Shown here: in pieces, positions 20 through 60,736 of the stretch | Position numbering within the stretch: position 1 is the stretch's first letter | Layout of the letters: each line of letters starts with the position of its first letter | Origin: a virus | DNA length: 64,000 bases | Direction: 5' to 3' (one strand) | Virus record (IMG/VR): IMGVR_UViG_3300020048_000015 | Span: 1-64,000 of that record | Program-made: the position numbers and the translations under genes | The notes under the pieces: generated by a model | Told to the model about the DNA's origin: nothing | The model's database searches: none | The model's input: only the letters and a program-made list of their open reading frames with translations

Positions 20-82
20 ATGAAGATTGAAGATATATGTAAAAAATATGGTATAAATACTGATAATTCAATAGATGCTTAG
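20..82 (+). pseudogene. Collapsed remnant of the LRR-family head (MKIEDICKKYGINTDNSIDA*)
   Basis: Matches the start of 3871..4320 (MKIEEICEYYGI...DGSID) with NYTIN deleted and an early TAG. Confidence 0.6.
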
Positions 83-576
83 AATGAAAAAATAGAAAAT
101 ATATAAATGAAGTATATTAAATTATTTAAGTAGTTCTTTATCGCAAACAAGGAATCTTTGGTCATTCCTATTTTAGCATCTTCTATGAATACGAACCTTT
201 CAAGTTTTCTCAAATCTAAGTCATCAACGGCTACCCAAGTTGATACATCTTTATTGTTATTAAGCCATTGTGTTATCTCTTCCATTCTAATTCTTGTGAG
301 GTCATTTGGAGACTTTATTTCACTGGATTTATCTGGTGTATATCCAATAGGAGATTTTATCAATCCTTGTCTTCTATAAAAACTTTGCATTTCAGATAGG
401 TTTATCCACAGCTTCCAATCAGAAGATACTACAATCTCACAGTCGGTTTCCGATATTATATCGTTTATATTCTTCACCGCATCTTTATTGAAGTCTTGAA
501 GTTCCGGATTTCCTGTTACCCAACATACCGGATCCAATCTCATTACTCCCTGATGATCAAGAAATAGTATCTTCAT
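79..576 (-). CDS. HAD-superfamily protein, Swiss-Army-knife RNA-repair-like (HAD_SAK_2 type)
   Basis: ILFLDHQGV, IVVSSDWK and WVAVDDLDL motifs. Confidence 0.75.
   Translation of the reverse strand: MKILFLDHQGVMRLDPVCWVTGNPELQDFNKDAVKNINDIISETDCEIVVSSDWKLWINLSEMQSFYRRQGLIKSPIGYTPDKSSEIKSPNDLTRIRMEEITQWLNNNKDVSTWVAVDDLDLRKLERFVFIEDAKIGMTKDSLFAIKNYLNNLIYFIYIFSIFSF
107..133 (+). pseudogene. Isolated N-terminal tag remnant MKYIKLFK*
   Basis: 8-codon ORF matching the MKYLKLFE motif, with AATATATA just upstream. Confidence 0.4.
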
Positions 577-3025
577 ATACAGGCTCGTATTTCTTCTGAA
601 TGAATCCTCCAGTCCATTCTACCAGTTCTTCAATAGTAGGAAGTGTATAAGCTAATTCACCTGGTGATTTAGTAAGGAATCCTTCAGATACTTTAACAAT
701 CGGTTGTTCACCTAATCTAAGGCCATTGTAGTATTCTTCTGTTATACCTTTAAACTCTTCAATAGGAGTTATAGTTCTTTCTTCTTTGACAAACTTCATA
801 TCCGATATAGGGTATATGTTGTTTAATCTTCTAGATGTAAGCATACCTTCTGCGAATATGTTTAAGTGTCTATTAGTTACAACATTGTATATCTCAGCAA
901 ACTCACCTTCTTCTTTACCTACTATCGTAACTAAATCACCTTTATCATTGAATGTTTTGGTTCCTATCGGAGTATGTTCATTAGGTATTGCATAAGTAAA
1001 CTGTCCTTTATCTAAGTTAAATATTCTATGTCCACCATCGTGTTCAAGATATCCCGATATACCTAATTTAGATCCATCACTGAATAGTATATTGACAGAT
1101 GGTGTCTTCACCATTTCCATTATCCATAATGGTTTAGCGGAATCAAATTGACCATCGTCAAAGTTCCATACTAAAAGATTATCTTCATAAGATATATCTT
1201 CTATGTTTTTCTTAGTTCCATTAAACATTGTTATCTTAGTTCCCTTAACAAAACAAGGTAAAATAAAGTAAAGATTAGTTCCATATCCTGTGCCTATTGC
1301 ATTGGTTGCATATGTTCTTACATATATGTATGCGTATGGATTTGGTATTGCGTAGGTCTGTGTAAATGTACCTACCGCAGTTCCTGTACCAGCTACTTTG
1401 TTATCTAATATGGTAGGATCCGGACTTGTACTCCATACGATACCTCTTTCAAGTATTGCTGATCCACCATCGCTTGTGATTGTTCCAGTGACTGTTGCAC
1501 TACTATTACTAACACTTCCATAACTATCAGAAGTAACCGTAGGTTCTGTCGCAACAAACCCTAATCTAAAGTCTAAAGGACCTATTGAACCAATCGCATA
1601 TTGCCCAGTTGTTGTCAATACTGATATTGTTATAGTATCATTTCCGGTAAGTGTAGGCGATGTTTTCAAAAAGTAAACACCAGCACCTGCTTTATATTGT
1701 TCACCTGTATTAAATATACTTATACTTGATATAGGAATATTTGTTGCTGATCCATTAATAGCAGTTACTTCTGTATGATTTATATTTGGATTAACACTTA
1801 AAGGATTGACATTCCATACTAAATCCACTATCCATGTAAAAGCATCACTCCTAAGAGAATATGTTATACCAGTTATTATACCAGGTGTTGCTGCTGTAAC
1901 ATCAATTGTTTTAGTTTTAGAACTTACACCTGATGTATTTTTAACATAAAGTGTAACATCATATGAACCACCATTTATAAATGCAACTTCTAAATTAGTA
2001 GTACCACCATATACTGGAGGTAATGAACCAATTGAGTTACCAATAATCAAACTAGGACGTTGTGCTTCATAAGAAACTAAAGACCAATCACCGGATTGAG
2101 AAGCATCATAACTACTATTAGATTGTTCATTTCCACTTATAGACCATGTGGTATCTGCTGGTTGATATCCATAACTTAGATTATCAAAGATAACAGATTG
2201 AGTTCCACCTACAGAATCAAATAATTGAACTGCTTTGAAATCAACCACAGGAATAGGAAGATTTATATCTAATCTATAAGTTTCTAGCTCATAGTTTATA
2301 AAGTAATTTCCATATGGTGATGCAGTAACATTATTAAAAGGAATTACTTGATTTCCTAATTCTATCCAACCATCATCTAACGGTTTAAAAGAAACACTAA
2401 CTGTTTTACCATTTAAGTAATCATTTACCCCAAAAGTTCCTATTCTTACACCTTCAAAAGGGGTTTCATTTATATAATCTAATCTAGTAGGTACTATAGT
2501 TTCATTATATACACCAGTATCTGATACAAAAATTGAATATGTATATCCATAATCTTCAGAGTAAAGAGAATATGTTCCTTCTAAAACATCAACATAGTCT
2601 TCATTAAGTAAAGAAATATACCCATCTGTAAAAGTCATCTGACCAAGATTTTGAGTTACTCCACCAAAGTCTAGAAATGTATCATTTATCGGTGTGTATG
2701 TTACATCTACTGTTTTATTATTTAAGTTTTGACTTTCTATTTCAATAGAAGATGGACTAAAAGAAATAACTTTATACTCTAAGTCATATCCTGAAATATA
2801 AATCCAGTTTATGTATTCTATAACCCTAATACTTCCACCACCAGCAGCTGGAGAAGTAGATGTATTATTAGATATACCTTCATATATACTAAATCTTTTA
2901 TTCCATTCTTTTCTAGCTAAATCTCTTTGAAGATTTATTTGGTCTAACTTAGATTGCTCTTCATTTATTCTTTGTGACCTTTCTAATTCTATTTTTTTAA
3001 GTATTTCTTCAATTGACTTTCCCAT
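557..3025 (-). CDS. Large virion/adhesin-like protein with an FnIII-like domain and a C-terminal Hint (Hedgehog/BIL-like) domain
   Basis: Beta-rich Thr/Ser/Gly body; ATVTGTITSDGGSAILERGIVWST...YVRTYATNAIGTGYG; Hint runs from P-CFVKGTKI (Cys591) to YNVVTNRHLNIFAEGMLTS. Confidence 0.75.
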   Translation of the reverse strand: MGKSIEEILKKIELERSQRINEEQSKLDQINLQRDLARKEWNKRFSIYEGISNNTSTSPAAGGGSIRVIEYINWIYISGYDLEYKVISFSPSSIEIESQNLNNKTVDVTYTPINDTFLDFGGVTQNLGQMTFTDGYISLLNEDYVDVLEGTYSLYSEDYGYTYSIFVSDTGVYNETIVPTRLDYINETPFEGVRIGTFGVNDYLNGKTVSVSFKPLDDGWIELGNQVIPFNNVTASPYGNYFINYELETYRLDINLPIPVVDFKAVQLFDSVGGTQSVIFDNLSYGYQPADTTWSISGNEQSNSSYDASQSGDWSLVSYEAQRPSLIIGNSIGSLPPVYGGTTNLEVAFINGGSYDVTLYVKNTSGVSSKTKTIDVTAATPGIITGITYSLRSDAFTWIVDLVWNVNPLSVNPNINHTEVTAINGSATNIPISSISIFNTGEQYKAGAGVYFLKTSPTLTGNDTITISVLTTTGQYAIGSIGPLDFRLGFVATEPTVTSDSYGSVSNSSATVTGTITSDGGSAILERGIVWSTSPDPTILDNKVAGTGTAVGTFTQTYAIPNPYAYIYVRTYATNAIGTGYGTNLYFILPCFVKGTKITMFNGTKKNIEDISYEDNLLVWNFDDGQFDSAKPLWIMEMVKTPSVNILFSDGSKLGISGYLEHDGGHRIFNLDKGQFTYAIPNEHTPIGTKTFNDKGDLVTIVGKEEGEFAEIYNVVTNRHLNIFAEGMLTSRRLNNIYPISDMKFVKEERTITPIEEFKGITEEYYNGLRLGEQPIVKVSEGFLTKSPGELAYTLPTIEELVEWTGGFIQKKYEPVYEDTIS

Positions 3026-3422: not shown

Positions 3423-3881
3423 ATGAATAATAACGAAAATATAAAAGATATTTGTAAAGAATATGGTATAATAAACTATACTATAAATGATGATTTGACT
3501 ATTGATGTAAATGGCAATGTTTATCTTAGTAGAATTGGATTAACAAAACTACCACTTAAATTTAATAAAGTAATTGGTTATTTTTATTGTTCTTATAATC
3601 AATTAACCAGTTTAGATGGTTGTCCTAAAGAAGTTGGTGGGGATTTTGATTGTTCTTCAAATAATTTAACAAGTTTAGAGGGTAGTCCTAAAGAAGTTGG
3701 TGGTTATTTTTCTTGTTCAAGAAATAATTTAACAAGTTTAGAGGGTAGTCCTAAAGAAGTTGGTGGTTATTTTAATTGTCATCTTAATCCATTACCACAA
3801 GAAGTAATTTATAATCCAAAAGAAGAAATTAAACGTTTGAATAGAGAAAAGAAACTAAATATACTATTAAATGAAGATTGA
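3423..3881 (+). CDS. 21-aa-repeat LRR-like protein, type A tail (3 repeats)
   Basis: Head ICKEYGIINYTINDD; repeats LTSLEGxPKEVGGxFxC; ends REKKLNILL. Confidence 0.9.
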   Translation: MNNNENIKDICKEYGIINYTINDDLTIDVNGNVYLSRIGLTKLPLKFNKVIGYFYCSYNQLTSLDGCPKEVGGDFDCSSNNLTSLEGSPKEVGGYFSCSRNNLTSLEGSPKEVGGYFNCHLNPLPQEVIYNPKEEIKRLNREKKLNILLNED

Positions 3882-4320
3882 AGAAATTTGTGAATATTAT
3901 GGTATACAAAACTATACAATTAATGATGATGGTTCAATTGATGTAGATGGAAATGTCAATTTAGCATATAAAGGTTTAACTATTATTCCATTGAAATTTA
4001 ATAAAGTGACTGGTTATTTCTCTTGTTCTGTTAATAAATTAACATCATTAGAAGGTTGCCCTATTTGGGTTGGTGGTAGTTTTCATTGCTATGCCAATAA
4101 ACTTGTTAATTTAATAGGTTGTCCAAGTTATGTTGGTGCTATGTTTAATTGTAATGACAATTACTTAACTACTTTAGAAGGTTGCCCATCTTATGTTGGT
4201 GGTTATTTCTACTGTCTACAAAACCCACCACTTCCAAAAGAAATAATGGATAATCCAAAAGCAGAAATATTAAGATTACAAAGAGAAGCAAAATTAAATA
4301 CCTTATTAAACTCGTTTTAA
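3871..4320 (+). CDS. LRR-like protein, type A (3 repeats)
   Basis: Same architecture; ends REAKLNTLL; overlaps the previous stop. Confidence 0.9.
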   Translation: MKIEEICEYYGIQNYTINDDGSIDVDGNVNLAYKGLTIIPLKFNKVTGYFSCSVNKLTSLEGCPIWVGGSFHCYANKLVNLIGCPSYVGAMFNCNDNYLTTLEGCPSYVGGYFYCLQNPPLPKEIMDNPKAEILRLQREAKLNTLLNSF

Positions 4321-4388
4321 GACACTTTTATTTTAATATTATACTAACCTATATAAAACTAATTAAAACTCATTAAATAGCCAAAAGA

Positions 4389-5030
4389 ATGATAAATATA
4401 AAAGAAATTTGTAGAAAATATGGTATAACAAATTATACAATTAATCTGGATGGTTCAATTGATGTAGTTGGTAATGTTTATTTAATACACGATGGATTAA
4501 CAGAAATACCACTAAAATTTAATAAAGTTTCTGGTGATTTTTCTTGTTCCAGAAATAAATTAACAAATCTAGAAGGCTGTCCTAATTATGTGGGTGATAC
4601 ATTTTATTGTGGTTATAATAACTTAACATCATTATATGGTTGTCCGAATTATGTAGGAGATGCATTTTATTGTGGTTATAATAACTTAACCTGTTTAATA
4701 GGCAGTCCTAATTATGTGGGTGATACATTTTATTGTGGTTATAATAACTTAACATCATTATATGGTTGTCCGAATTATGTAGGAGATGCATTTTATTGTG
4801 GTTATAATAACTTAACCTGTTTAATAGGCAGTCCTAATTATGTGGGTGATACATTTTATTGTGGTTATAATAACTTAACATCATTATATGGTTGTCCATC
4901 TCATATAGGTGGGAAATTTTATTGCTATGGTAATCCACTACCAGAAGAAATAAGGGATAATCCTATGGCAGAAATAAAGAGATTGAATAGAGAATCAAAA
5001 CTAAATCTACTATTAAATGAATATTTATAA
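4389..5030 (+). CDS. LRR-like protein, type A (6 repeats)
   Basis: Same architecture; contains exact 126-bp internal duplications. Confidence 0.9.
   Translation: MINIKEICRKYGITNYTINLDGSIDVVGNVYLIHDGLTEIPLKFNKVSGDFSCSRNKLTNLEGCPNYVGDTFYCGYNNLTSLYGCPNYVGDAFYCGYNNLTCLIGSPNYVGDTFYCGYNNLTSLYGCPNYVGDAFYCGYNNLTCLIGSPNYVGDTFYCGYNNLTSLYGCPSHIGGKFYCYGNPLPEEIRDNPMAEIKRLNRESKLNLLLNEYL
4581..4897 (+). repeat. Exact tandem repeat, 126-bp unit x2.5
   Basis: Units start at 4581, 4707 and 4833. Confidence 0.9.
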
Positions 5031-5469
5031 AATTTGTGAATATTATGGTATACAAAACTATACAATTAATCCGGATGGTTCCATTGATGTAAATGGTAAT
5101 GTTTGGTTGTTTAATAAAAATTTAACCAAACTACCACTTAAATTTAATAAGGTTTCCTGTAATTTTAGTTGTTCCGATAATAAAAATAACTTAACATCTT
5201 TAGATGGATGTCCGAATTATGTAGGTGGTAATTTTTATTGTTCTAATAATAAATTAACATCATTATATGGTTGTCCTAATTATGTTGGTGGTAATTTTTA
5301 TTGTCATAATAATGAAATAACCAGTTTAGATGGTTGTCCAAAAGAGATTGGTGGTAATTTTCATTGCTATAGTAATCCACTACCACAAGAAATAATGGAT
5401 AATCCAAAAGCAGAATTATTAAGATTAAACAGAGAAAATAAATTAAATATACTATTAGATGAATATTAA
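5017..5469 (+). CDS. LRR-like protein, type A (3 repeats)
   Basis: Same architecture; ends RENKLNILLDEY. Confidence 0.9.
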   Translation: MNIYKICEYYGIQNYTINPDGSIDVNGNVWLFNKNLTKLPLKFNKVSCNFSCSDNKNNLTSLDGCPNYVGGNFYCSNNKLTSLYGCPNYVGGNFYCHNNEITSLDGCPKEIGGNFHCYSNPLPQEIMDNPKAELLRLNRENKLNILLDEY

Positions 5470-5842
5470 AGAAATTTGTAAACTCTATAATATAGAAAAC
5501 TATAAAATTAATCCAGATGAATCTATTGATGTTGATGGTAATGTTATTTTATTTAATAGAAGATTAACCAAACTACCATTAAAATTTAATAAAGTAACTG
5601 GTGATTTTTCTTGCACTTCTAATCTATTAACAAATCTAGAAGGATGTCCGAATTATGTAGGTGGTAATTTTGGTTGTGTAGCTAATAATATAACCAGTTT
5701 AGAAGGATGTCCGAATTATGTAGGTGGTAATTTTAATTGTCATCTTAATCAATTACCAGAAGAAATAAGGAATAATCCTAAAGCAGAAATTTTAAGATTA
5801 CAAAGAGAATCAAAATTAAATATACTATTAGATGAATATTAA
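5459..5842 (+). CDS. LRR-like protein, type A (2 repeats)
   Basis: Same architecture; ends RESKLNILLDEY. Confidence 0.9.
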   Translation: MNIKEICKLYNIENYKINPDESIDVDGNVILFNRRLTKLPLKFNKVTGDFSCTSNLLTNLEGCPNYVGGNFGCVANNITSLEGCPNYVGGNFNCHLNQLPEEIRNNPKAEILRLQRESKLNILLDEY

Positions 5843-6235
5843 AGTAATTTGTAAACTCTATAATATAGTAAACTATACTATAAATCATGATGGATCCATT
5901 GATGTAGATGGTGATGTTAATTTATATAATAAAAGATTAACGAAAATTCCAATTAAATTTAATAAAGTAACTGGTTATTTTACTTGCTGTGATAATGAAA
6001 TAACATCATTAGAAGGATGTCCTAATTATGTTGGTGATAATTTTTCTTGTGTAGCTAATAAATTAGTTGTTATAGTAACAATCTAACCAGTTTAGAAGGT
6101 AGTCCAAATTATATAGGTGGATATTTTTTTTGTAGTGGAAATCCATTACCTAAAGAAATAATTGATAATCCTAAAGCAGAGTTATTAAGATTACAAAGAG
6201 AATCAAAACTAAATAGTTTATTAGATGAATATTGA
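5832..6235 (+). pseudogene. Frameshifted LRR-like gene, type A
   Basis: Frame breaks near 6066 after ANKL; another frame continues CYSNNLTSLEGSP...RESKLNSLLDEY* to 6235. Confidence 0.8.
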
Positions 6236-6587
6236 TGAAATTTGTAATGAATATGGTATAACAAATTATACAATTAATCCAGATGGATCTATTGATGTAA
6301 ATGGTAATGTTACTTTAAGATCAAATAGTTTAGAAAAAATAACCTATAATTCAATAGTTATACTAATAGGGGAAAATGATGATGGACTATCTATTGACCT
6401 AAATGAAATATCTAAAATAGATACAATCTATAAAGAAAACTTAAATGTAGTAGACTCAACTCTCTATCACTCCGGTTATAAAAATGGTCAAATTGATGCA
6501 GATAATAAAAAATACTTATGGAAAAAAGTAACCCAGGAAAATGGTGAAATAATTTATCTAAACAAATTTAAAACTTTATATGAATAA
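6225..6587 (+). CDS. Chimera: LRR-family head fused to an unrelated C-terminal domain
   Basis: First ~39 aa are the LRR head; the tail DSTLYHSGYKNGQID resembles 33421..33720. Confidence 0.7.
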   Translation: MNIDEICNEYGITNYTINPDGSIDVNGNVTLRSNSLEKITYNSIVILIGENDDGLSIDLNEISKIDTIYKENLNVVDSTLYHSGYKNGQIDADNKKYLWKKVTQENGEIIYLNKFKTLYE

Positions 6588-6827: not shown

Positions 6828-6942
6828 GAAAAAACAGACATTTGGAAAAAACAGACATTTAGAAAAAACAGACATTTAGAAAAAACAGACATTTAGAAAA
6901 AACAGACATTTGGAAAAAACAGACATTTAGAAAAAACAGACA
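6828..6942 (+). repeat. Tandem array of 17-bp GAAAAAACAGACATTT(A/G), 6 full copies plus 1 partial
   Basis: Units at 6828, 6845, 6862, 6879, 6896, 6913, 6930; no spacers. Confidence 0.95.
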
Positions 6943-6943
6943 T

Positions 6944-8363: not shown

Positions 8364-8618
8364 ATGATAGAGATGAAAACTTTTAAAGATTTCGCATCAG
8401 ATACGGATGAGGGGAAACTGTTATTAGCAGCATTGGCTGTATTAACATCAATAGAACAAAAGGATATTCAGATGCGTAAGTGGGGTGGAATGGTGAATCC
8501 AGATGAAGCTTTTAAAAGAGTTGTTGAGTTGGCAAATAAAATCTTTTATGAAGAGGAGTGGATGGCTGAGGAAATTATAAGTAATAGGGATGATAAAATA
8601 TCAAAAATTATTGATTAG
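8364..8618 (+). CDS. Hypothetical protein with C-terminal tag
   Basis: Ends RDDKISKIID. Confidence 0.7.
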   Translation: MIEMKTFKDFASDTDEGKLLLAALAVLTSIEQKDIQMRKWGGMVNPDEAFKRVVELANKIFYEEEWMAEEIISNRDDKISKIID

Positions 8619-8623: not shown

Positions 8624-9256
8624 ATGGTAGATAAGTATTTAGATAGATTAGTTATTCCTGAAGATTTCCTTAGTTATGGTTATTGTGCATTGAATGATGA
8701 TATGGGTGGTAGAATTATTGAAGATGTCATTGAGATATCTTTTAATAGTTTATATAAAGATTTATTGATATATTTTTATGATAATGGTGTATTGGATAGG
8801 TTTATTCCTGATAGTTTTAAAGTATCTGATGATATTATAAGTAAGTTGAGGGTATCAGTTGATAGGTTTTGGATTTATTCAATATGGGGTAGAGAGTTGC
8901 GAAATGTTGTGTATATCTTGTTTGATTTATTCAATCAATATATGAGGATGTATTATAAGGATGTATGTGATTATACATCTGATTGGCTTTATATTGATGT
9001 TGATATTATATTTATTAAAAAATGTGATATGGATATTAATAAGATGATGAATGATGTATCATTTTTAGGATATAATGTTGAATATAGACCATTTGTATAT
9101 TTTGAATCAAGGAAGAAGTATGTTGTGGTTGATAAGGATATGATAATAAAAGATAAGGGATTTGGTGATAAGTATAGTAAGAGTAGAGAAGATATAGTTA
9201 GTAATATTATTAGGTGTTGTATTAGGGAAAAGAAATTAGGAAAAATATTAGGATAA
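8624..9256 (+). CDS. Hypothetical protein with C-terminal tag
   Basis: Ends REKKLGKILG. Confidence 0.7.
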   Translation: MVDKYLDRLVIPEDFLSYGYCALNDDMGGRIIEDVIEISFNSLYKDLLIYFYDNGVLDRFIPDSFKVSDDIISKLRVSVDRFWIYSIWGRELRNVVYILFDLFNQYMRMYYKDVCDYTSDWLYIDVDIIFIKKCDMDINKMMNDVSFLGYNVEYRPFVYFESRKKYVVVDKDMIIKDKGFGDKYSKSREDIVSNIIRCCIREKKLGKILG

Positions 9257-10807: not shown

Positions 10808-11147
10808 AGATATGTTCAACTGTAAACCATCTGAACCAATCAGAATGGATAAAGCAGATTTTGTAGAAAAAACAAAATCTTTATTGGAAAGTCTGTACGA
10901 AATTTATTCTAAGGGATGGGTGCGTAGAGTATTAACAACCGATGAATATCAAGGTGAAACTGTTTGTGAGAACTGCAAGGGCTGTGGGGTATTCATTGAA
11001 AATGGGGAAGAGAAGGATTGTTATATAGATTATGAAATGGGCGATTGTTATCATCGGTTTTGTGATTATGAGCAGGTCGGGATGGACTTGGAATTAAAGT
11101 TGGATAATATTATTGATTTATTAGTAGTTAACGAAGTGATATGTTAA
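10797..11147 (+). CDS. Hypothetical protein with Cys motifs (possible Zn finger)
   Basis: CENCKGC...CYH..C. Confidence 0.6.
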   Translation: MEFEDMFNCKPSEPIRMDKADFVEKTKSLLESLYEIYSKGWVRRVLTTDEYQGETVCENCKGCGVFIENGEEKDCYIDYEMGDCYHRFCDYEQVGMDLELKLDNIIDLLVVNEVIC

Positions 11148-11896
11148 GAAATTTTCTAAGAAATATTAGAATCAATATGATTTGTAGGAAATATAATATA
11201 AGAAATTATGTTATAAATAAAGATGGTTCTATTGATGTATATGGTGGTGTTGATTTATCAAATAGAAATTTAGATAGACTGCCATTAAAATTCAATAAGG
11301 TTAGTAACTATTTTTATTGCAAGAATAATAACTTAACAACTTTAGAAGGTTGTCCTATTTGGGTTGGTAATAGTTTTAATTGCTATGATAATAAACTTGT
11401 TAATTTAACAGGTTGTCCAAGTTATGTAGGTGATGATTTTTGTTGTTCTAATAATTACTTAACCAATTTAATAGGAAGTCCAAAAAAAGTTGGTTTGAGT
11501 TTTTTTTGTTATAGTAATAAATTAACCAGCTTAGAAGGCGCACCTAATTATGTAGGTTGTCATTTTTATTGTTTTGATAATCAATTAAGTAATTTAATTG
11601 GTTCACCTAATTATGTAGGTTTTGAATTTGATTGTTCAAGTAATAATTTAACCAGTTTAGAAGGCTGTCCTAAAGAAATAGGTGATTTTAGTTATTATAA
11701 TAATTTAATAAGGGGAATAATAGGTTTATTTAATAACATTAAAATATATTTAGATTATCAAGAAACATATAATTTCCTTAGAAAAGATTCTAAAATTGTT
11801 AAGCATAGATTAGATGAAGCCATAAAAGATTATAATGAATATTATGATGATTGTGTTGAATTACCAGAAAAAATATATGGGTATGTTTATATTTAG
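11141..11896 (+). CDS. LRR-like protein, type B tail (6 repeats), N-terminal FLRNIRINMI
   Basis: Same head and repeats; tail YLDYQETYNFLRKDSKIVKH...LPEKIYGYVYI. Confidence 0.9.
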   Translation: MLRNFLRNIRINMICRKYNIRNYVINKDGSIDVYGGVDLSNRNLDRLPLKFNKVSNYFYCKNNNLTTLEGCPIWVGNSFNCYDNKLVNLTGCPSYVGDDFCCSNNYLTNLIGSPKKVGLSFFCYSNKLTSLEGAPNYVGCHFYCFDNQLSNLIGSPNYVGFEFDCSSNNLTSLEGCPKEIGDFSYYNNLIRGIIGLFNNIKIYLDYQETYNFLRKDSKIVKHRLDEAIKDYNEYYDDCVELPEKIYGYVYI

Positions 11897-12593
11897 ATAT
11901 GTAATTAATTTTCTAAGAAATATAAGAATAAATAGGATTTGTAGAAAATATGGTATAACTAATTATACAATAAATCCTGATGGTTCAATTGATGTAGATA
12001 ACAATGTTTCTATATCATATAGAAAATTATATAGATTACCATTAAAATTCAATAAGATTAGTGGTTGGTTTGATTGTTCTTATAACAAATTAACAAATTT
12101 AGATGGTTTCCCTAATTATGTTGGTGATTGGTGTGATTGTACCCATAATGAATTGACAAGTTTAGAGGGTGCGCCTAAAGAAATTGGTGGAAATTTTAGA
12201 TGTTATCTTAACAATTTAACAGATTTAAAAGGTTGTCCAAAAGTTATTAATGGATATTTTGATTGTTCTAATAATAAATTAACAAGTTTAGTAGGATGTC
12301 CGAATTATCTTGATGGTGGTTTTTCTTGTGGTGATAATAATTTAACAAGTTTAGAAGGGTGTCCAAGTGATGTTGGTGGTGTTTTTTTACATTCTTATAA
12401 TCCAATTTCACCAATAATAGATTTATTTGATGATATTAAAATATATTTAGAATATCAAGAAACATATAATTTCCTTAGAAAAGATTCTAAAATTGTTAAA
12501 CATCTTTTAGATGAAGCTTTAAGAGATTATAATGAATATTATAATAAAAATATAAGATTACCAAAATCATTTTATCGTTATGTTTATATTTAA
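11883..12593 (+). CDS. LRR-like protein, type B (5 repeats), N-terminal FLRNIRINRI
   Basis: ORF 11835..12593; likely start 11883; type B tail. Confidence 0.9.
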   Translation: MFIFRYVINFLRNIRINRICRKYGITNYTINPDGSIDVDNNVSISYRKLYRLPLKFNKISGWFDCSYNKLTNLDGFPNYVGDWCDCTHNELTSLEGAPKEIGGNFRCYLNNLTDLKGCPKVINGYFDCSNNKLTSLVGCPNYLDGGFSCGDNNLTSLEGCPSDVGGVFLHSYNPISPIIDLFDDIKIYLEYQETYNFLRKDSKIVKHLLDEALRDYNEYYNKNIRLPKSFYRYVYI

Positions 12594-14465: not shown

Positions 14466-14648
14466 ATGACAATTAAATTTCTTAATAAGAATATGTTTAG
14501 ATATATAAATAGGATCTTAACCAAACTACCACTTAAATCCAATAAAGTTTATGGTCATTTTTATTGTTTTGGTAATAATTTAAATACTTTAATAGGTTGC
14601 CCGAATGAAGTTATTCATTTAAAAAATTATTATTTTTTAAATGAATGA
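14466..14648 (+). pseudogene. Multiply deleted LRR-family remnant
   Basis: Stitched pieces FRY-INRI / LTKLPLKSNKV / FYCFGNNL / TLIGCP; the 5' part mirrors the 11883 start. Confidence 0.65.
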
Positions 14649-14711: not shown

Positions 14712-15113
14712 ATGGAAAAGGTTAAACAAGAAATGAAATTTACAGTAAGTGATTTATTTATAGATTGTTATAAACTAATTAATGTCATTAACATAAATGA
14801 TAAAATTAGTTTATTGAGTAAAAGGGAATTATTATTGCTACTTATATTAGTAAGTGATACACATGACACAGAAAATAATATAGTATTTGATAATGTCAAA
14901 AATTATGAACTTGAACTAAAAACAGTATTGGAACTTTGGGATAGTAATAGTACAACTGACACCGATCTAATCTATCTTAGTGAAGTAACTGGTGATGCAT
15001 CAATTGATGTTTCAGTTCTTGTTGATAAAAATGATGGTATTCTACCAAAACCTTTAAGTGCAACAGAAGCACTTGTTTTAAGTAGAGAGATAAAAATTAA
15101 TGGTTTAATTTAA
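14712..15113 (+). CDS. Hypothetical protein with C-terminal tag
   Basis: Ends REIKINGLI. Confidence 0.7.
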   Translation: MEKVKQEMKFTVSDLFIDCYKLINVININDKISLLSKRELLLLLILVSDTHDTENNIVFDNVKNYELELKTVLELWDSNSTTDTDLIYLSEVTGDASIDVSVLVDKNDGILPKPLSATEALVLSREIKINGLI

Positions 15114-17069: not shown

Positions 17070-17597
17070 ATGGATGTAATTAATGAAATAGATTTATATG
17101 AAGGCACAAACTTCAAGTATAGTCATAAATATTGTCATTTTACAAGATTAAATGATTTATATAAAGTAGGATCAAAACAAAACCAAAATAGTATAGATGC
17201 TATTTTTTCAGATGCAGTATTGAACAATGAAAAAAATTGGTACTGCATTCATTCGACACATAAATTAAATTACCCAGATAATTTCTATGATTTTTATAAT
17301 AAAATTAATAATATTGATGCTATAAGTATTCACAATTATTATTGTGAATACTTAATAACTGATGATAAACTATTAGAAAAAATAAAAACAATTGATGGTA
17401 TATTCACTTTAAATTTATATGAAACAAATAGTAATTTTTATAATCTAAATAAAACAAAAGCAATTGTTTATAAAATAGATAATAACATATTAGTTTTGAA
17501 GATAAATGAGTTTTTAGAATATAATAAAAATCATATAAGTTATATTTCTCTAATTAGAGAACTTAAATTAAAAAAACTATTCCAAGATGGAGAATAA
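17070..17597 (+). CDS. Hypothetical protein with C-terminal tag
   Basis: Ends SLIRELKLKKLF. Confidence 0.7.
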   Translation: MDVINEIDLYEGTNFKYSHKYCHFTRLNDLYKVGSKQNQNSIDAIFSDAVLNNEKNWYCIHSTHKLNYPDNFYDFYNKINNIDAISIHNYYCEYLITDDKLLEKIKTIDGIFTLNLYETNSNFYNLNKTKAIVYKIDNNILVLKINEFLEYNKNHISYISLIRELKLKKLFQDGE

Positions 17598-18867
17598 AAT
17601 AAAAGTTATAGAGTTATTTGCCGGTGTTGGTGGATTTAGAATAGGATTAGAAGGTTGGAATAATAAATCAGCATCATCAAATTACAAAGAAAAATTTGAA
17701 AGCCCATATAAAATAATATGGAGTAATCAATATGAACCATCAACCAAATTGCAACATGCTTCAATAGTTTATGAAAATAGTTTTGGAAAAGATGGACATC
17801 TTAATCAAGATATTTCTACTGTTGAAATTTCACAAATTCCAGACCACGATTTATTAGTAGGTGGCTTTCCTTGTCAAGATTATTCTGTTGCAACAACACT
17901 TAAAAATTCAAAAGGATTATTAGGGAAAAAAGGAGTTTTATGGTGGTCAATACATAAAATATTAAGTGAAAAAGAAAATAAAACAAAATATCTTTTTCTT
18001 GAAAATGTTGATAGACTATTAATCTCCCCATCTAAACAAAAAGGAAGAGACTTTTCAATTATATTGAAAAGTCTTAATGATTTAGGTTATGTCGTTGAAT
18101 GGAGAGTAGTAAATGCTTCTGAATATGGAATGCCACAAAGAAGAAAAAGAATTTTCATTTTGGCTTATTTGAAAGATACTACAATTTATAATCAAATAAA
18201 AGAAAAAAAAGATTGGCTATTAACAGATGGAACATTAGCAAATGCTTTTCCTATTAAATCTGAAAATATTTCAGATGCAACTGAATTTATATTAAAAGGT
18301 GATATAGTTGAAATTTCTGAAAACTTTAATAAAAATGGTAAAAAAGGAATGTTTGAAAATACAGGAATTATGGTTGATGGTGTTGTAACAACAATAAAAA
18401 CCAATCCAGATTATAAAGGAATGTATACTACATTAAAAGATATAATACAAAATGGTGATGTAGCTGATGAATTTTATATAAAAGGTGAAGAATTAAATAA
18501 ATGGATATACCTAAAAGGTCCTAAAAAAGAAATGCGAAAAAATGCACAAGGCTTTGAATATAATTATAGCGAAGGTGGTATGATTTTTCCAGATTCATTA
18601 GACAAACCTTCAAGAACAATTATAACAGGAGAAGGTGGAAAATCAGCATCAAGATTTAAACATGTTATAAAAGTTGACAAAGGTCATCGTAGATTATTAC
18701 CGATTGAATTGGAAAGATTAAATATGTTTCCTGATGAACACACAAAATTTGAAGGCTTTTCTGATACAAAACGAGCTTTTTTTATGGGAAATGCTTTAGT
18801 TGTTGGAGTAATTGAAAGGATTGGAATTGCACTTAATCAAAAAATTAATATGATTCCTCAGTCTTAA
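17587..18867 (+). CDS. DNA (cytosine-5)-methyltransferase, M.Sau3AI-like
   Basis: ELFAGVGGF, GGFPCQDYSVA, ENVDRLL.SP..Q.GRDF, QRRKRIF; family resemblance recalled from memory. Confidence 0.9.
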   Translation: MENKIKVIELFAGVGGFRIGLEGWNNKSASSNYKEKFESPYKIIWSNQYEPSTKLQHASIVYENSFGKDGHLNQDISTVEISQIPDHDLLVGGFPCQDYSVATTLKNSKGLLGKKGVLWWSIHKILSEKENKTKYLFLENVDRLLISPSKQKGRDFSIILKSLNDLGYVVEWRVVNASEYGMPQRRKRIFILAYLKDTTIYNQIKEKKDWLLTDGTLANAFPIKSENISDATEFILKGDIVEISENFNKNGKKGMFENTGIMVDGVVTTIKTNPDYKGMYTTLKDIIQNGDVADEFYIKGEELNKWIYLKGPKKEMRKNAQGFEYNYSEGGMIFPDSLDKPSRTIITGEGGKSASRFKHVIKVDKGHRRLLPIELERLNMFPDEHTKFEGFSDTKRAFFMGNALVVGVIERIGIALNQKINMIPQS

Positions 18868-19960: not shown

Positions 19961-20524
19961 ATGGATATCAAAAAAATCTGCAAAAATTATAATATTTTTA
20001 ATTATACAATAAATCCAGATGGATCTATTGACGTGTATGGTAATGTTAAATTAACACATAGTTTAGAAAAAATACCATTGAAATTCAATAAAGTTACAGG
20101 TGATTTTTATTGCTCTAATAATAACTTAACATCTTTGGATGGATGTCCTAACTATGTTGGTGGTGATTTTTTTTGTGCCAGAAATAGATTAACATCTTTG
20201 GATGGATGTCCTAACTATGTTGGTGGTGATTTTTTTTGTGATAGTAATAAACTATCAAACTTAGAAGGTTCTCCAAAAGAGGTTGGTGGTAATTTTTGGT
20301 GTCTATATAATCAATTAACCCGCTTAATAGGTTGTCCAAATTATGTAGGTGGTAATTTTTATTGTAATGATAATCAATTAACCAGCTTAATAGGTTGTCC
20401 AAATTATGTTGGTGGTCGTTTTTCTTGTCTTAATAATCCATTACCACAAGAAATATTAGATAATCCTAAAGCTGAAATAATACGTTTGATAAGAAATGAT
20501 AAGATAAATTATATCTTAGATTAA
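19961..20524 (+). CDS. LRR-like protein, type A (5 repeats)
   Basis: Same architecture; ends RNDKINYILD. Confidence 0.9.
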   Translation: MDIKKICKNYNIFNYTINPDGSIDVYGNVKLTHSLEKIPLKFNKVTGDFYCSNNNLTSLDGCPNYVGGDFFCARNRLTSLDGCPNYVGGDFFCDSNKLSNLEGSPKEVGGNFWCLYNQLTRLIGCPNYVGGNFYCNDNQLTSLIGCPNYVGGRFSCLNNPLPQEILDNPKAEIIRLIRNDKINYILD

Positions 20525-21269: not shown

Positions 21270-22259
21270 ATGGATAAAAATATAAAATATAAAATAGTTT
21301 CAATGTTTTCCGGTAGTGGTGGTCTTGATTTAGGATTTTTGGAAACAAATAGAGTAGATGTTTTATTAGCAAATGATTTCAACAAATATGCTTGTGAATC
21401 ATACAAAAATAATATTGGTAATCATATAATTTGTGGTGATATTAAAGAATTAACACAGTTACCAAAAGCAGATATTTTGATTGGTGGTCCACCTTGTCAA
21501 GCGTTTTCAACTGCCAATCCAAATAGATCATTTGATGACCAACGTAATTGGCTATTCAAGGAATATTCAAGAGTTTTAACAGAAGTAAATCCTGATATTT
21601 TTGTGATGGAAAATGTTTCAGGAATGATAACACTAGAAAAAGGAGCAGTCCTTAAAATTATATTAAAAGAATTTTCTGATAAAGGTTATAATGTTCAATA
21701 TAAAATTTTAAATGCTAAAAATTATGGTTCACCACAAAGTAGGAAAAGAACAATAATTGTAGGAGCTAAGATTTCAATAGATTCCAAATTTATCTATCCT
21801 GAATCAATTATTAACCCACCAGTATTTGGTAAATATGTTACTGTTGGTGATGTTTTACTTAATAACCCACTTAATTCACAAAGTAATAATCACAATTTTT
21901 CTAAATTATCTGAACTAAACTTTAAAAGAATAAAGTATATACCACAAGGTGGCTCTATGAAAGATTGCCCAGTAGAATTACAAAATAATTCTGACTTGAA
22001 AAGAGCAATGAAAAGGCTAAATTTAAATGATGTAAGTCCAACAATTGTCCATAATAATATGGATCACTACTATCACCCAACTGAAAGCAGACGTATTACA
22101 ATTAGGGAAATGGCTCGAATTCAAGGTTATCCAGATGATTATATCTTTTATGGACCAAAAAGTGAACAATCAAGACAGGTAGCAAATAGTGTTCCTATTC
22201 CATTAGGATTCAATATAGCAAAAAGCGTAATAAGTTATTTAGATGAATCAACAAATTAA
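21270..22259 (+). CDS. DNA (cytosine-5)-methyltransferase
   Basis: MFSGSGG, GGPPCQ, ENV, QSRKR, YRQVANSVP-like motif X. Confidence 0.92.
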   Translation: MDKNIKYKIVSMFSGSGGLDLGFLETNRVDVLLANDFNKYACESYKNNIGNHIICGDIKELTQLPKADILIGGPPCQAFSTANPNRSFDDQRNWLFKEYSRVLTEVNPDIFVMENVSGMITLEKGAVLKIILKEFSDKGYNVQYKILNAKNYGSPQSRKRTIIVGAKISIDSKFIYPESIINPPVFGKYVTVGDVLLNNPLNSQSNNHNFSKLSELNFKRIKYIPQGGSMKDCPVELQNNSDLKRAMKRLNLNDVSPTIVHNNMDHYYHPTESRRITIREMARIQGYPDDYIFYGPKSEQSRQVANSVPIPLGFNIAKSVISYLDESTN

Positions 22260-39445: not shown

Positions 39446-39478
39446 GAAGAATAGAATTTTTAAAAATTCTATTCTTCT
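39445..39478. terminator. 34-bp perfect palindrome at a gene end
   Basis: AGAAGAATAGAATTTTT/AAAAATTCTATTCTTCT. Confidence 0.65.
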
Positions 39479-58356: not shown

Positions 58357-58875
58357 ATGAAATATTTAAAATTATTCGAAAACTTTAATAAATCAGAGAT
58401 TGATGAAATTTGTAATGAATATGATATAAAAAATTATATTATAAATCCGGATGGAAGCATAGATGTAGATGGTAGTGTTGATTTAGCATACAAAAGACTA
58501 TCGGAACTTCCACTTAAATTTAATACAGTTAGTGGTGGTTTTAATTGTTCTAATAATAACTTAACTACATTAGAAGGTGCTCCTAATTATGTTGGGAAAA
58601 ACTTACTATGCCAAAATAATAACTTAACAAGTTTAGATGGGTTTCCAAATGTTGTAGGTGGTGAATCTTGGATACTATATAATCCTATACATGAAATCAC
58701 ACGTTTATTTGGCTATACTAAAATATATTTAGAATATCAAGAAACATATAATTTTGTCAGAAAGGATTCTAAAGTAGTTAAATATTTATTTGAAGAAGCA
58801 TTAAATGATTATAATGAATACTACAATAAAGAAGTTAAATTACCAGAAGAAATATACAGATATACTTATATCTAA
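58357..58875 (+). CDS. N-tagged LRR-like protein, type B (2 repeats)
   Basis: MKYLKLFENF + head + repeats + type B tail. Confidence 0.9.
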   Translation: MKYLKLFENFNKSEIDEICNEYDIKNYIINPDGSIDVDGSVDLAYKRLSELPLKFNTVSGGFNCSNNNLTTLEGAPNYVGKNLLCQNNNLTSLDGFPNVVGGESWILYNPIHEITRLFGYTKIYLEYQETYNFVRKDSKVVKYLFEEALNDYNEYYNKEVKLPEEIYRYTYI

Positions 58876-58893: not shown

Positions 58894-59451
58894 ATGAAAA
58901 ACGATAAGATATATAAATATCATGAATATCTAAAAGAAAATCTATTAGATTCACCAGAAACCTATGTGGAATCAGCATTAAGAAAATTAGAAAATAGAAT
59001 AAAATCTATGTTTGATGTTGATGAGAAAGGTGATGATGTTAAAAAATATGGCGTAAAATCAGATATAAACAGAAAAGAAAAAGGTGAATTATCATTTAGT
59101 GACTTAGGTTTAAATTTAGAAAGTTTAGAACTATCCAAATATTCTAAAACACAAGATAATTTAAAACTTAAATTTTCTGATGAACAGTTCCTATATGATA
59201 TAACATTTTCAATTGATTTAAAAGATGCAGTTCCAAAAGATAAAGAAAGTGATTTTTCTGAATCAGATATTAAAAAATGTCAAATTAAATTTAAAAAATA
59301 TTCAACTGATGACTTTCAATTAGTAGCAGGACCTTTAACTAAAACAGATGGTTTAGATAAAATAGATGAAGAATATTTAGTAAATATAAAGATTGAACTT
59401 GATGAAACATCAGGTGATGAAGAAGATGAATTTAAAATAGAAACAGAATGA
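58894..59451 (+). CDS. Hypothetical protein (N-tag-like start)
   Basis: IYKYHEYLKEN. Confidence 0.7.
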   Translation: MKNDKIYKYHEYLKENLLDSPETYVESALRKLENRIKSMFDVDEKGDDVKKYGVKSDINRKEKGELSFSDLGLNLESLELSKYSKTQDNLKLKFSDEQFLYDITFSIDLKDAVPKDKESDFSESDIKKCQIKFKKYSTDDFQLVAGPLTKTDGLDKIDEEYLVNIKIELDETSGDEEDEFKIETE

Positions 59452-60032
59452 AATATTTAAAATTATTTGAAAATTTTAATCAATCAGAAATTGATTATAT
59501 TTGTAGAAAATATAACATTCAAAAATATACAATAAATCTTGATGGATCTATTGATGTAGATGGTCATGTTAATTTATACAAAAAACAATTAACTGATATC
59601 CCCCTTAAATTTAATAAAGTTTCTGGTTTTTTTGATTGTTCTGGTAACAACTTAACAAATTTAATTGGGTGTCCAAATTATGTTGGTGATTTTTTTAATT
59701 GTGCAAATAATCAATTAACAAGTTTAATAGGCTGCCCAACAGAAATTTGGCAAGGTTTTGATTTTGGATTCAATAAATTGACCAATTTAGAAGGTGTTGC
59801 TAAAATTATTAATAAACATACATGGTATAGTGATAATCCAATAACACCAATAATAGATTTATTTGGATATGATGTTAAAAAATATTTAGAATATCAAGAA
59901 ACATATAATTTTTTAAGAAAGGATTGTAAGATTGTTAAACACTTATTAATAGAAGCATTGGAAGATTTCAATACAGAATATAAAGATAATGTTGAACTAC
60001 CAGAAGAAATAGAAGGATATACTTATATATGA
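59448..60032 (+). CDS. N-tagged LRR-like protein, type B (3 repeats)
   Basis: MKYLKLFENF + head + repeats + type B tail. Confidence 0.9.
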   Translation: MKYLKLFENFNQSEIDYICRKYNIQKYTINLDGSIDVDGHVNLYKKQLTDIPLKFNKVSGFFDCSGNNLTNLIGCPNYVGDFFNCANNQLTSLIGCPTEIWQGFDFGFNKLTNLEGVAKIINKHTWYSDNPITPIIDLFGYDVKKYLEYQETYNFLRKDCKIVKHLLIEALEDFNTEYKDNVELPEEIEGYTYI

Positions 60033-60736
60033 AACACTTAAAACTATTTGAAAACTTTAATAAATCTGAAATTGATGATATTTGTAAAAAATATGGAATA
60101 AGAAACTATATAATAAATCCTGATGGGTCTATTGATGTTGATGGTGATATTAATTTAGTTAATATAAATCTAATTAAATTACCACTTAAATTTAATATAG
60201 TTTCTGGGGAGTTTGATTGTCGTGGTAACAAATTAACTTCTTTAGAAGGTTGCCCTAAAGAAGTTGGTGGTGATTTTTCTTGTTATGCTAATCAATTAAC
60301 TAGTTTAGAAGGTTGCCCTAAAGAAGTTGGAGGTTATTTTGATTGTGCAAATAATCAATTAACCAGTTTAATAGGTTGCCCTAAAGAAGTTGGTGGTTAT
60401 TTTAGTTGCACTACTAATCAATTGACATCTTTAGAAGGTGGTCCAAGTAAAGTTGGTGGAAGTTTTTATTGTCAGCGTAATAAATTAATCAGTTTAGATG
60501 GACATCCAGAAGAAATTGGTAGTTCTCGTTGGTATTATAATAATCCAATTTCACCAATAATAGATTTATTTGATGATATTAAAATTTATTTAGAATATCA
60601 AGAAACATATAAATTTTTAAGAAAAGATTGTAAAATTGTTAAACACCTTTTAGATGATGCTTTAAAAGATTATAATGAATATTATAATAAAAATGTAGAA
60701 TTACCAAAAAAAATTAAAGGATTTTGGTTAACATAG
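60029..60736 (+). CDS. N-tagged LRR-like protein, type B (5 repeats)
   Basis: MKHLKLFENF + head + repeats + type B tail. Confidence 0.9.
   Translation: MKHLKLFENFNKSEIDDICKKYGIRNYIINPDGSIDVDGDINLVNINLIKLPLKFNIVSGEFDCRGNKLTSLEGCPKEVGGDFSCYANQLTSLEGCPKEVGGYFDCANNQLTSLIGCPKEVGGYFSCTTNQLTSLEGGPSKVGGSFYCQRNKLISLDGHPEEIGSSRWYYNNPISPIIDLFDDIKIYLEYQETYKFLRKDCKIVKHLLDDALKDYNEYYNKNVELPKKIKGFWLT

What the first reader, a model, noticed from the sequence alone, without database searches (positions are those of the whole stretch)
3423..6587. Diversifying repertoire of 21-residue LRR-like proteins (15 loci in 64 kb)
Seen: 11 intact paralogs (3423, 3871, 4389, 5017, 5459, 11141, 11883, 19961, 58357, 59448, 60029), plus a frameshifted copy, a chimera and two remnants. 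They share a constant head (IC..YGI.NYTIN.DGSIDV.GNV...LPLKFNKV), 2 to 6 copies of LTSLxGCPxxVGGxFxCxxN, and one of two constant tails. The x positions in xFxCxxN differ from repeat to repeat while the scaffold is fixed. Genes in the main array are joined by near-identical overlapping junctions (CTATTAGATGAATATT). Established: in LRRs the xLxLxxN strand forms the concave binding face. Inference: a phage-encoded, accordion-like library of variable binders, conceptually like lamprey VLRs, possibly anti-defence or host-factor binders.
Basis: partly seen in the sequence, partly recalled or inferred. Interest (0 to 1): 0.88.

Follow-up and report, generated by a model that had tools for sequence, protein, structure and literature searches.

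The report
Expanded phage leucine-rich-repeat binder family
A very large bacteriophage carries dozens of small leucine-rich-repeat genes with fixed ends and fast-changing binding-face residues, so it looks like an inherited library of binding proteins, but what they bind is unknown.

Summary
The window is the first 64 kb of a 183-kb fragment of a huge phage. It holds 11 intact paralogs, one frameshifted copy, one chimera and at least one remnant. The whole record has 27 N-caps.

The proteins are true LRR solenoids (AlphaFold pLDDT 94). Their 21-residue repeat has a cysteine in the core, as in Listeria InlJ (profile E 5e-21), and the fold matches IpaH, SspH and YopM LRR domains. They have no signal peptide or membrane segment.

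Variation concentrates at repeat positions 14, 16, 18 and 19, the outward-facing residues of the concave strand. N, Y, D and S fill 68% of these positions. In 26 independent gene pairs, the amino-acid-changing bases of these codons diverge about twice as fast as interleaved four-fold synonymous sites. Codon-model omega ranges from 0.6 to 2.2, so positive selection is likely but not proven.

A related strain has orthologs with one repeat fewer, with replaced repeat blocks between conserved caps, and 14 array genes instead of 7. Copy number per phage runs from 2 to at least 117. No reverse transcriptase was found, so this is germline recombination rather than programmed hypermutation.

The family has thousands of members, almost all viral and all unannotated. 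Function is inferred, not shown. The same scan noted this family in other windows and genomes.

The parts
3423..3881 (+). Type A LRR paralog, 152 aa, 3 full repeats, C-terminal helix tag
3871..4320 (+). Type A paralog, 149 aa, 3 repeats. Its ortholog in a related strain (P0141, 128 aa) lacks one whole repeat.
4389..5030 (+). Type A paralog, 213 aa, 6 repeats, including a 126-bp unit repeated 2.6 times at 99% identity. A second assembly has 2 repeats fewer. The related-strain ortholog (P0162) keeps the caps (83/87 identical) but has different repeats.
5017..5469 (+). Type A paralog, 150 aa, 3 repeats. AlphaFold model has pLDDT 93.7. Ortholog P0121 is 140/150 identical.
5459..5842 (+). Type A paralog, 127 aa, 2 repeats. 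Ortholog P0130 is 118/127 identical, with no change inside the repeats. The second assembly has 63 bp less.
5832..6232 (+). Frameshifted copy: N-cap and one repeat in ORF 5832-6086, tail in another frame at 6062-6232
6225..6587 (+). Chimera: 45-residue family N-cap followed by unrelated sequence
11141..11896 (+). Type B-tail paralog, 251 aa, 5-6 repeats. The second assembly has 63 bp more.
11835..12593 (+). Type B-tail paralog (likely start 11877-11883), 5 repeats
14484..14642 (+). Remnant matching residues 26-77 of the family
19961..20524 (+). Isolated type A paralog, 187 aa, 5 repeats
58357..58875 (+). Type B paralog, 172 aa, with N-leader MKYLKLFENF and the upstream motif TTAATATATAGA
59448..60032 (+). 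Type B paralog, 194 aa, with N-leader
60029..60736 (+). Type B paralog, 235 aa, 5 repeats. AlphaFold model has pLDDT 94.5 with a three-helix C-cap.
5452..5467 (+). Example of the overlapping stop/start junction word. It also occurs at 3416, 3864, 5010, 5825 and 6218.

Best explanation
These genes form a germline multigene family of small, acidic, probably cytoplasmic phage LRR proteins. Each protein is a rigid solenoid with a conserved N-cap, 2 to 6 copies of a 21-residue repeat, and a constant tail. The repeat has Phe, Cys and Asn in the core, an InlJ-like cysteine ladder. Four outward-pointing residues per repeat on the concave beta-sheet are free to change. They are drawn mainly from N, Y, D, S, G and H, so each paralog presents a different polar and aromatic surface on the same scaffold. 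New variants arise by ordinary recombination: unequal crossing-over between 63-bp repeats, unequal crossing-over between tandem genes joined by a conserved overlapping junction, and exchange of repeat blocks between conserved caps. Point substitutions at the concave positions are then fixed at or above the neutral rate. The constant ends carry short tags that unrelated proteins of the same phage also carry: a C-terminal helix R-x-x-K-L/I-x-x-L-L on type A, and an N-terminal MKYLKLFENF leader on type B. The most likely function is a repertoire of specific binders for host (or rival) macromolecules during infection, docked through the tags to a common partner or compartment. Shown here: the fold class, the location of variation, the mode of evolution, the expansion and the tag sharing. 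Inferred: that the concave face binds ligands, that the ligands differ between paralogs, and that they are host factors.
For: Fold. The profile of 48 homologs hits InlJ 3bz5 at E 5e-21, with the family Cys aligned to the InlJ ladder Cys, and SspH2 at 2e-16. AlphaFold models score pLDDT 94.5 and 93.7. All structural neighbours are LRR domains: IpaH1.4 Z 11.1, SspH1 9.4, InlJ 9.3, YopM 9.0.

Variation. Entropy exceeds 3 bits only at positions 14, 16, 18 and 19. In 794 units from 204 genes, N, Y, D and S make up 68% of these positions, while K is 1%, E 2% and L 1.3%. Adjacent repeats are nearly independent at these positions (19-25% identity versus 14-18% expected). The convex positions 9 and 10 are homogenised within a protein (36-52% versus 12-16% expected).

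Rate. Hypervariable-codon positions 1 and 2 diverge at 2.3 and 1.8 times the rate of four-fold sites inside the same repeats. 22 of 26 pairs show this (p 5e-4), and the bootstrap intervals exclude 1. MG94 omega is 1.24 and class-frequency GY omega is 2.24.

Recombination. Orthologs in a related strain differ by a whole repeat, or by replaced repeats between conserved caps, and that strain has 14 array genes against 7 here.

Expansion. N-cap counts are 27, at least 117, 2, 16 and 11 in five records. There are 7,066 cluster representatives, almost all viral.

Intracellular indications. There is no hydrophobic segment (maximum Kyte-Doolittle 1.25), pI is mostly 4.3-6, and each repeat has about 2 cysteines.

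Tags. The C-terminal tag occurs in 15 of 246 genes against 0.6 expected. The N-leader is on 29 ORFs, 13 of them not LRR proteins.
Against: No ligand, expression time or location is known. No RNA run holds the locus. GY94 with shared codon frequencies gives omega 0.62-0.93 at the hypervariable sites, significantly below 1 in two of three settings. Four-fold sites vary from p 0.14 to 0.49, so the fastest synonymous sites match the hypervariable rate, and the data allow omega of about 1. One ortholog pair (5459 versus P0130) changed only in the caps and not in the repeats. Fusion partners gave no functional clue. PADLOC and NCBIfam gave nothing beyond local InlJ similarity. The repeat-count differences between the two assemblies of this phage may be assembly artefacts.
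Confidence: 0.55

Rival explanations
1. The proteins are virion-borne host-recognition or adhesion modules. Small LRR adhesins would dock on the particle through the conserved caps or tags and bind varied cell-surface glycans or proteins, widening or switching host range.
For: N/Y/D/S-rich faces are typical of carbohydrate binders. The main array sits beside an 822-aa fibre-like gene with PKD and Hint matches. LRR or beta-helix domains are proposed host-recognition parts of the Goslar tail-associated fibres (PMC13742148). Type B genes carry an N-leader containing L-F-E, which resembles the T4 prohead protease site and capsid-targeting sequence (my own knowledge, untested). The N-domain of one fusion matches a PHROG 'head protein' family weakly (E 0.0025).
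Against: The proteins are only 127-250 aa and have no recognisable fibre, baseplate or trimerisation domain. Two cysteines per repeat and the lack of any export signal fit a cytoplasmic protein better. The leader also heads a small P-loop enzyme, which is unlikely to be a virion part. In the related strain the fibre-like gene next to the array is absent, yet the array is larger.
Confidence: 0.2
2. The expansion is a neutral or selfish by-product. The repeats and genes multiply because the DNA is recombinogenic, and the concave positions vary only because they are unconstrained. The proteins would have one generic role, or none.
For: GY94 omega at hypervariable sites is 0.62-0.93. The array contains a frameshifted copy, a chimera and remnants. 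One nearly complete relative has only 2 copies.
Against: The hypervariable alphabet is far from the neutral expectation: K+E+L+I+V is 8.7% against about 36% expected from codon frequencies. Caps and scaffold are under strong purifying selection (omega 0.02-0.25). Nearly all copies are intact reading frames. Hypervariable substitution outruns interleaved synonymous sites.
Confidence: 0.15
3. The variation comes from programmed hypermutation by a diversity-generating retroelement or a similar targeted mechanism acting on AAT-type codons.
For: Hypervariable codons are 62% A at position 2 and 86% pyrimidine at position 3. Ser is AGT in 50% of cases there against 25% elsewhere, and Leu is CTT in 42% against 7%. 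Positions 1 and 2 change fast while position 3 does not. This is the pattern adenine mutagenesis would leave.
Against: No reverse transcriptase (PF00078) was found in this record or in five related records, including genomes that are 98% and 97% complete, while the control genomes did score. Repeats also differ at synonymous scaffold sites, so no template-to-variable-region identity exists. Dozens to more than 100 targets per genome is unlike any known retroelement system.
Confidence: 0.03

Closest known systems
Listeria internalin J (InlJ, PDB 3bz5), the cysteine-ladder LRR
   Same: Both have a 21-residue repeat with Cys replacing the second core Leu of LxxLxLxxN. The profile match is E 5e-21, with the cysteines aligned. 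Structural Z is 9.3.
   Different: InlJ is a large secreted, wall-anchored adhesin with 15 repeats and MucBP domains. These proteins are 127-250 aa, have no signal peptide and have their own caps. They score 19-55 bits against a 1700-bit NCBIfam cut-off.
IpaH / SspH / SlrP / YopM bacterial type III effector LRR domains
   Same: Both have short 20-22-residue repeats and a curved solenoid of similar size, with substrates bound on the concave face. These are the best structural matches (IpaH1.4 Z 11.1). The logic of a constant docking part joined to a variable LRR is also shared.
   Different: There is no NEL ubiquitin-ligase domain and no secretion signal. The P-x-x-V-G-G loop and Cys core are distinct. 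The genes are encoded by phages, not bacteria.
Lamprey variable lymphocyte receptors
   Same: Both have constant caps flanking a variable number of LRR modules, with diversity concentrated on concave-strand residues and new combinations made by exchange of repeat blocks.
   Different: VLR diversity is made somatically in each lymphocyte from one incomplete gene plus cassettes, and uses 24-residue repeats with disulfide-knotted caps. Here diversity is inherited as many complete genes, and changes on an evolutionary time scale. VLRs appear only low in the structure lists.
Repeat-protein expansions and genomic accordions of large eukaryotic viruses (CroV FNIP/FGxxFN LRR family, PMC9525666; poxvirus ankyrin and kelch families, from my own knowledge)
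   Same: Both show lineage-specific tandem amplification of small repeat-protein genes in very large viral genomes, presumed to bind host factors.
   Different: The host is bacterial, the LRR class is different, and no link to ubiquitin machinery is possible.
Shortened, cysteine-substituted LRRs of dsDNA viruses (Matsushima et al. 2021, Arch Virol 166:43, cited in PMC10945359; contents recalled from memory)
   Same: Both are viral LRRs with short units in which core hydrophobic residues are often replaced by Cys.
   Different: I could not read that paper, so I cannot say whether this phage family, its caps or its expansion were covered.

Membership tests
Leucine-rich repeat superfamily | Tandem 20-30-residue units with the conserved segment LxxLxLxxN/CxL | tested here: met
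   85 units in the record fit L-x-x-L-x-G-x-P-x-x-V-G-G-x-F-x-C-x-x-N-x. F15, C17, N20, L1 and L4 are nearly invariant.
Leucine-rich repeat superfamily | Curved solenoid with a parallel beta-sheet on the concave side | tested here: met
   This rests on predicted models only. pLDDT is 94.5 and 93.7, with a short strand at positions 15-16 of every unit. All top PDB neighbours are LRR domains.
Pfam LRR_4 (PF12799) | Score at or above the gathering threshold of 27 bits | tested here: not met
   The window proteins score 16-18 bits. About a third of the listed homologs carry a precomputed PF12799 hit.
Class 1 internalin InlJ (NCBIfam NF033187) | Full-length match above 1700 bits; signal peptide and LPXTG anchor | tested here: not met
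   Scores are 19-55 bits and cover the repeat region only. No hydrophobic N-terminus is present.
IpaH/SspH NEL effectors | C-terminal novel E3 ligase domain after the LRR | tested here: not met
   The tails are a 20-residue helix (type A) or a 3-helix cap of about 65 residues (type B). Pfam and NCBIfam give no NEL match.
Variable lymphocyte receptors | Somatic assembly of one germline gene from flanking cassettes; LRRNT and LRRCT disulfide caps | tested here: not met
   The genome has many complete genes with their own starts and stops. LRRNT matches are at chance level (E 0.06-0.8). Somatic assembly itself cannot be tested in a phage metagenome.
Diversity-generating retroelement target | Reverse transcriptase plus a template repeat that differs from the variable region only at adenines | tested here: not met
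   No PF00078 match in this record or in 5 related records, while controls scored. Units also differ at all bases.
Known anti-phage defence or counter-defence families | Match to a PADLOC model | tested here: not met
   No hit at E 0.01 for four members. PADLOC holds defence proteins, not anti-defence proteins, so this says little.

The most novel reading that the evidence does not exclude
Huge phages may carry an inherited adaptor library. In this reading, each LRR paralog recognises a different host protein (for example a defence-system component) with its hypervariable concave face. Its short constant tag (C-terminal RxxKLxxLL helix or N-terminal MKYLKLFENF leader) plugs it into one shared phage or host machine, such as the capsid interior for co-injection, a protease or another hub. 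This would be a bacterial-virus counterpart of the F-box/LRR and ankyrin/PRANC substrate-receptor families of eukaryotic viruses. The repertoire would expand to more than 100 genes where host diversity demands it.
Probability: 0.25. Interest if true: 0.88.

Novelty: new variant of a known kind. Interest (0 to 1): 0.68.

Why it matters
Phages are thought to economise on genes. Yet one nearly complete 597-kb phage carries at least 117 copies of this family, and this record carries 27. If the paralogs bind different host targets, huge phages carry large inherited repertoires of recognition proteins that evolve by the same rules as immune receptors: a fixed scaffold, a variable concave face and exchange of repeat blocks. 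That would help explain what very large phage genomes are for. It would also give a natural, compact (127-250 aa), disulfide-free binder scaffold with a minimal N/Y/D/S paratope alphabet. Finally, it would open the shared N- and C-terminal tags to study as phage protein-sorting signals. The family has thousands of members and no annotation, so any function assigned would name a large block of viral dark matter.

Tried and rejected
1. Sequencing runs. No RNA holder was listed for the locus. Logan contigs of the two best DNA holders break inside every LRR array. They therefore cannot tell whether the 63-bp and 126-bp differences between the IMG/VR record and ENA contig k141_234028 are real or come from assembly collapse.
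2. Nei-Gojobori counts on pairs of single units binned by pS gave inflated ratios. Binning on a noisy denominator is biased, and AT-biased synonymous sites saturate low. I discarded this analysis.
3. An IQ-TREE partitioned codon model on 83 units of 21 codons was over-parameterised (tree length 135) and reported no omega. I discarded it.
4. The sigma-70 promoter scan found fewer sites than shuffles, so it is uninformative.
5. Domain searches of the N-terminal 310 aa of the 568-aa fusion, the C-terminal extension of the 409-aa member and ten long homologs gave nothing above threshold in Pfam or PHROGs.
6. T4 prohead protease (PF03420) was not found, but the controls also did not score, so this carries no information.
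7. DNA of the best related contig (31,828 bp) could not be fetched. The metagenome scan returned only relatives at 72% identity or less. True ortholog dN/dS at low divergence was therefore not possible.
8. Literature searches for huge phage, megaphage or jumbo phage together with leucine-rich repeat found no description of this family.
9. I did not use complex prediction, because I had no partner to name.
Full report
**1. What the window is**

The window is bases 1-64,000 of a 182,728-bp IMG/VR virus record with about 25% G+C. Its topoisomerase II medium subunit is 67-69% identical to those of 635-642 kb uncultured phages and about 36% identical to T4-type gp52 proteins. An ENA contig of 353,919 bp carries the same sequence. 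The record is therefore a fragment of a huge phage.

**2.

- The frameshifted copy is 5832-6086 plus 6062-6232. The chimera is 6225-6587. One remnant lies at 14484-14642.
- The head (I-C-x-x-Y-x-I-x-N-Y-T-I-N-x-D-G-S-I-D-V ... L-P-L-K-F-N-K-V) is conserved in all copies.
- The junction word lies at each gene boundary of the main array. The stop of one gene overlaps the start of the next.
- The whole record has 27 N-caps.

**3. What the proteins are**

- Pfam gives only sub-threshold LRR_4 hits, and PHROGs gives two families of unknown function.
- A profile of 48 homologs matches the Listeria InlJ LRR region at E 5e-21, SspH2 at 2e-16 and several IpaH proteins. The family's Cys aligns with the InlJ ladder Cys.
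- AlphaFold models of a type B member (pLDDT 94.5) and a type A member (pLDDT 93.7) show an N-terminal helix followed by a regular solenoid with a short strand at F15-x16 of each unit.
- The tail is either a three-helix cap (type B) or one 20-residue helix (type A).
- All structural neighbours are LRR domains: IpaH1.4 Z 11.1, InlC2 10.2, SspH1 9.4, InlJ 9.3, YopM 9.0.
- In LRR terms, F15, C17 and N20 are the L4, L6 and N9 of LxxLxLxxN. Positions 14, 16, 18 and 19 are therefore the outward-facing residues of the concave strand. This follows from established LRR structure and is consistent with the models.
- The proteins have no hydrophobic segment, are acidic and carry about two cysteines per repeat. 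This fits a cytoplasmic location but does not prove it.

**4. Where the variation is**

- In the record's 62 internal units, entropy exceeds 3 bits only at positions 14, 16, 18 and 19.
- I collected 204 distinct family genes (794 units) from this record and 62 related IMG/VR loci.
- At the four positions N, Y, D and S make up 68%, while K, E, L, I and V together make up 8.7%. Codon frequencies alone would predict about 36% for those five.
- 77% of genes have a net negative hypervariable face, and only 4% a net positive one.
- The same hypervariable position in adjacent repeats is identical only slightly more often than composition predicts. The convex positions 9 and 10 are strongly homogenised within a protein. 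Repeats within a gene are therefore related, yet their concave residues have diverged.

**5. Selection**

I treat this result as model-dependent. All rate figures below come from independent gene pairs drawn from the 204-gene set.

| Method | Result at hypervariable positions |
|---|---|
| Pairwise ML, 15-42 pairs, GY94 with shared F3x4 frequencies | omega 0.62-0.93; scaffold core 0.02, other repeat positions 0.25, caps 0.14 |
| MG94 with genomic base frequencies | omega 1.24 (2dlnL 6.9 against omega = 1) |
| GY94 with class-specific codon frequencies | omega 2.24 (2dlnL 14.5 against omega = 1) |

The last two models fit far better than the first.

A model-free check uses four-fold sites of scaffold codons lying within the same 63-bp units:

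- These four-fold sites differ at p 0.27 (d 0.35).
- Position 1 of hypervariable codons differs at p 0.48 (d 0.82).
- Position 2 runs at 1.8-2.1 times the four-fold rate, and position 3 at 0.8-1.0 times.
- 22 of 26 pairs show the excess (p 5e-4).
- Bootstrap intervals are 1.74-2.82 for position 1 and 1.61-2.40 for position 2.
- Because the compared sites are interleaved, block recombination cannot produce this difference.

The main caveat is that four-fold sites are heterogeneous (p 0.14 to 0.49). The fastest of them match the hypervariable rate. I conclude that omega is at least about 1 and probably above it.

Codon usage at these positions points the same way. Ser is AGT 50% of the time against 25% elsewhere, and Leu is CTT 42% against 7%. 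These codons look recently derived from N-A-T neighbours.

**6. How new variants arise**

No reverse transcriptase is present in this record or in five related records, two of them 97-98% complete. A diversity-generating retroelement is therefore rejected.

A related strain (31.8-kb contig from another sample) supplies orthologs:

| Window gene | Ortholog | Comparison |
|---|---|---|
| 5017 | P0121 | 140/150 identical; two adjacent repeats have become identical in the relative |
| 3871 | P0141 | exactly one 21-residue repeat missing in the relative |
| 4389 | P0162 | caps 83/87 identical; internal repeats replaced; 6 repeats versus 3 |
| 5459 | P0130 | nine changes, all in the caps |

The relative's array has 14 genes where the window has 7. 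Recombination within and between paralogs is the main generator of new forms.

The two assemblies of this phage are identical over 15.5 kb except for five indels. Three are whole-repeat changes in LRR genes. Contigs from the source runs break in the arrays, so I cannot say whether these differences are real.

**7. Breadth of the family**

- N-cap counts per record are 27 here, at least 117 in a 597-kb phage (98% complete), 2 in a 476-kb phage (97% complete), and 16 and 11 in two fragments.
- The N-cap profile finds 7,066 cluster representatives at E 1e-3 or better, and 3,183 at E 1e-10 or better.
- Atlas clusters are about 100% viral.
- No source gives any member a name other than 'hypothetical protein'.
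- A cultured carrier of the same repeat exists: Vibrio phage VB_VaC_SRILMA, with eight units and different caps.
- I found no paper describing the family.
- The same scan noted the family before in three other windows of this genome and in other genomes.

**8. Tags**

- Type A tails end in R-x-x-K-L/I-x-x-L-L. This motif lies in the last 16 residues of 15 of 246 genes against 0.6 expected, and 9 of the 15 are not LRR proteins.
- Type B genes start with MKYLKLFENF, as do 13 unrelated ORFs.
- Ten leader ORFs are preceded by TTAATATATAGA-like motifs.
- The leader contains L-F-E, which resembles the T4 prohead protease site and capsid-targeting sequence. That is my recollection and was not tested.
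- These shared tags suggest that the LRR bodies are delivered to, or docked on, something common.

**9. Verdict**

This is a real, very large, unannotated phage LRR family. It has a fixed scaffold, a fast-evolving concave face and recombinational gain, loss and exchange of repeats and genes. The reading as a binder repertoire is the best fit but remains inferred.

Noticed in passing
window 557-3025 (-) and 79-576 (-): An 822-aa protein with weak PKD and C-terminal Hint matches sits beside a 165-aa HAD-like gene. This two-gene block is absent from the syntenic position in the related 31.8-kb contig, where the LRR array begins directly after the 132-aa gene.
   Followed up: partly
window 58357, 59448, 60029, 30252, 32298, 36454, 41598, 51070, 52112 and 20 more in the record: The N-terminal leader MKYLKLFENF (and variants) heads 29 ORFs, 13 of them unrelated to LRR proteins, including a small P-loop protein. 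It contains L-F-E.
   Followed up: partly
window 8364-8618, 8624-9256, 14712-15113, 17070-17597, 39469-39690, 41872-42348, 48930-49325, 49351-49878: The C-terminal motif R-x-x-K-L/I-x-x-L/I-L/I is shared by type A LRR tails and nine unrelated proteins. 15 of the 17 occurrences in the proteome are at a C-terminus.
   Followed up: yes
window 58341 and record positions 99089, 102980, 127778, 143369, 143407, 171521, 173782, 164090: The motif TTAATATATA(G/T)A lies 13-82 nt upstream of ORF starts in 16 of 17 occurrences, and 10 of those are leader ORFs. It is a possible phage promoter, but the temporal class could not be assigned.
   Followed up: partly
window 6828-6943: A 17-bp tandem repeat (6.8 copies, 96% matches) lies in an intergenic region. 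The other assembly has 68 bp (4 copies) fewer. A separate 191-bp indel lies after 3295.
   Followed up: no
window 17587-18867 and 21270-22259: Two C-5 cytosine DNA methyltransferase genes (Pfam E 1e-61 and 3e-75) flank the isolated LRR gene at 19961.
   Followed up: no
window 44831-46180 (-), 46280-48028 (+), 48220-48933 (+): T4-type topoisomerase II subunits are present. The large subunit appears split over two ORFs, and another first-stage note proposes a split intein. I did not check this.
   Followed up: no
window 44029-44298: A 129-bp tandem duplication (2.1 copies, 96% identical) lies inside ORF 43767-44525.
   Followed up: no
record 126032-127738 (-), 170036-171478 (-), window 51070-52077: A domain of about 330 aa and unknown function (starts MKYIKSYIGFNEALKPSQF) is fused in front of the LRR module in two genes. 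One of these carries a type B tail and the other a type A tail. A gene in the window with a similar start (MKYIKTFEALKPSTF) has no LRR module.
   Followed up: partly
IMG/VR record of 596,785 bp (loci L018, L030, L032, L033, L035, L038-L040): At least 117 family genes are present, most packed between about 100 and 180 kb. A few have in-frame TAA or TAG stops and are probably pseudogenes.
   Followed up: partly
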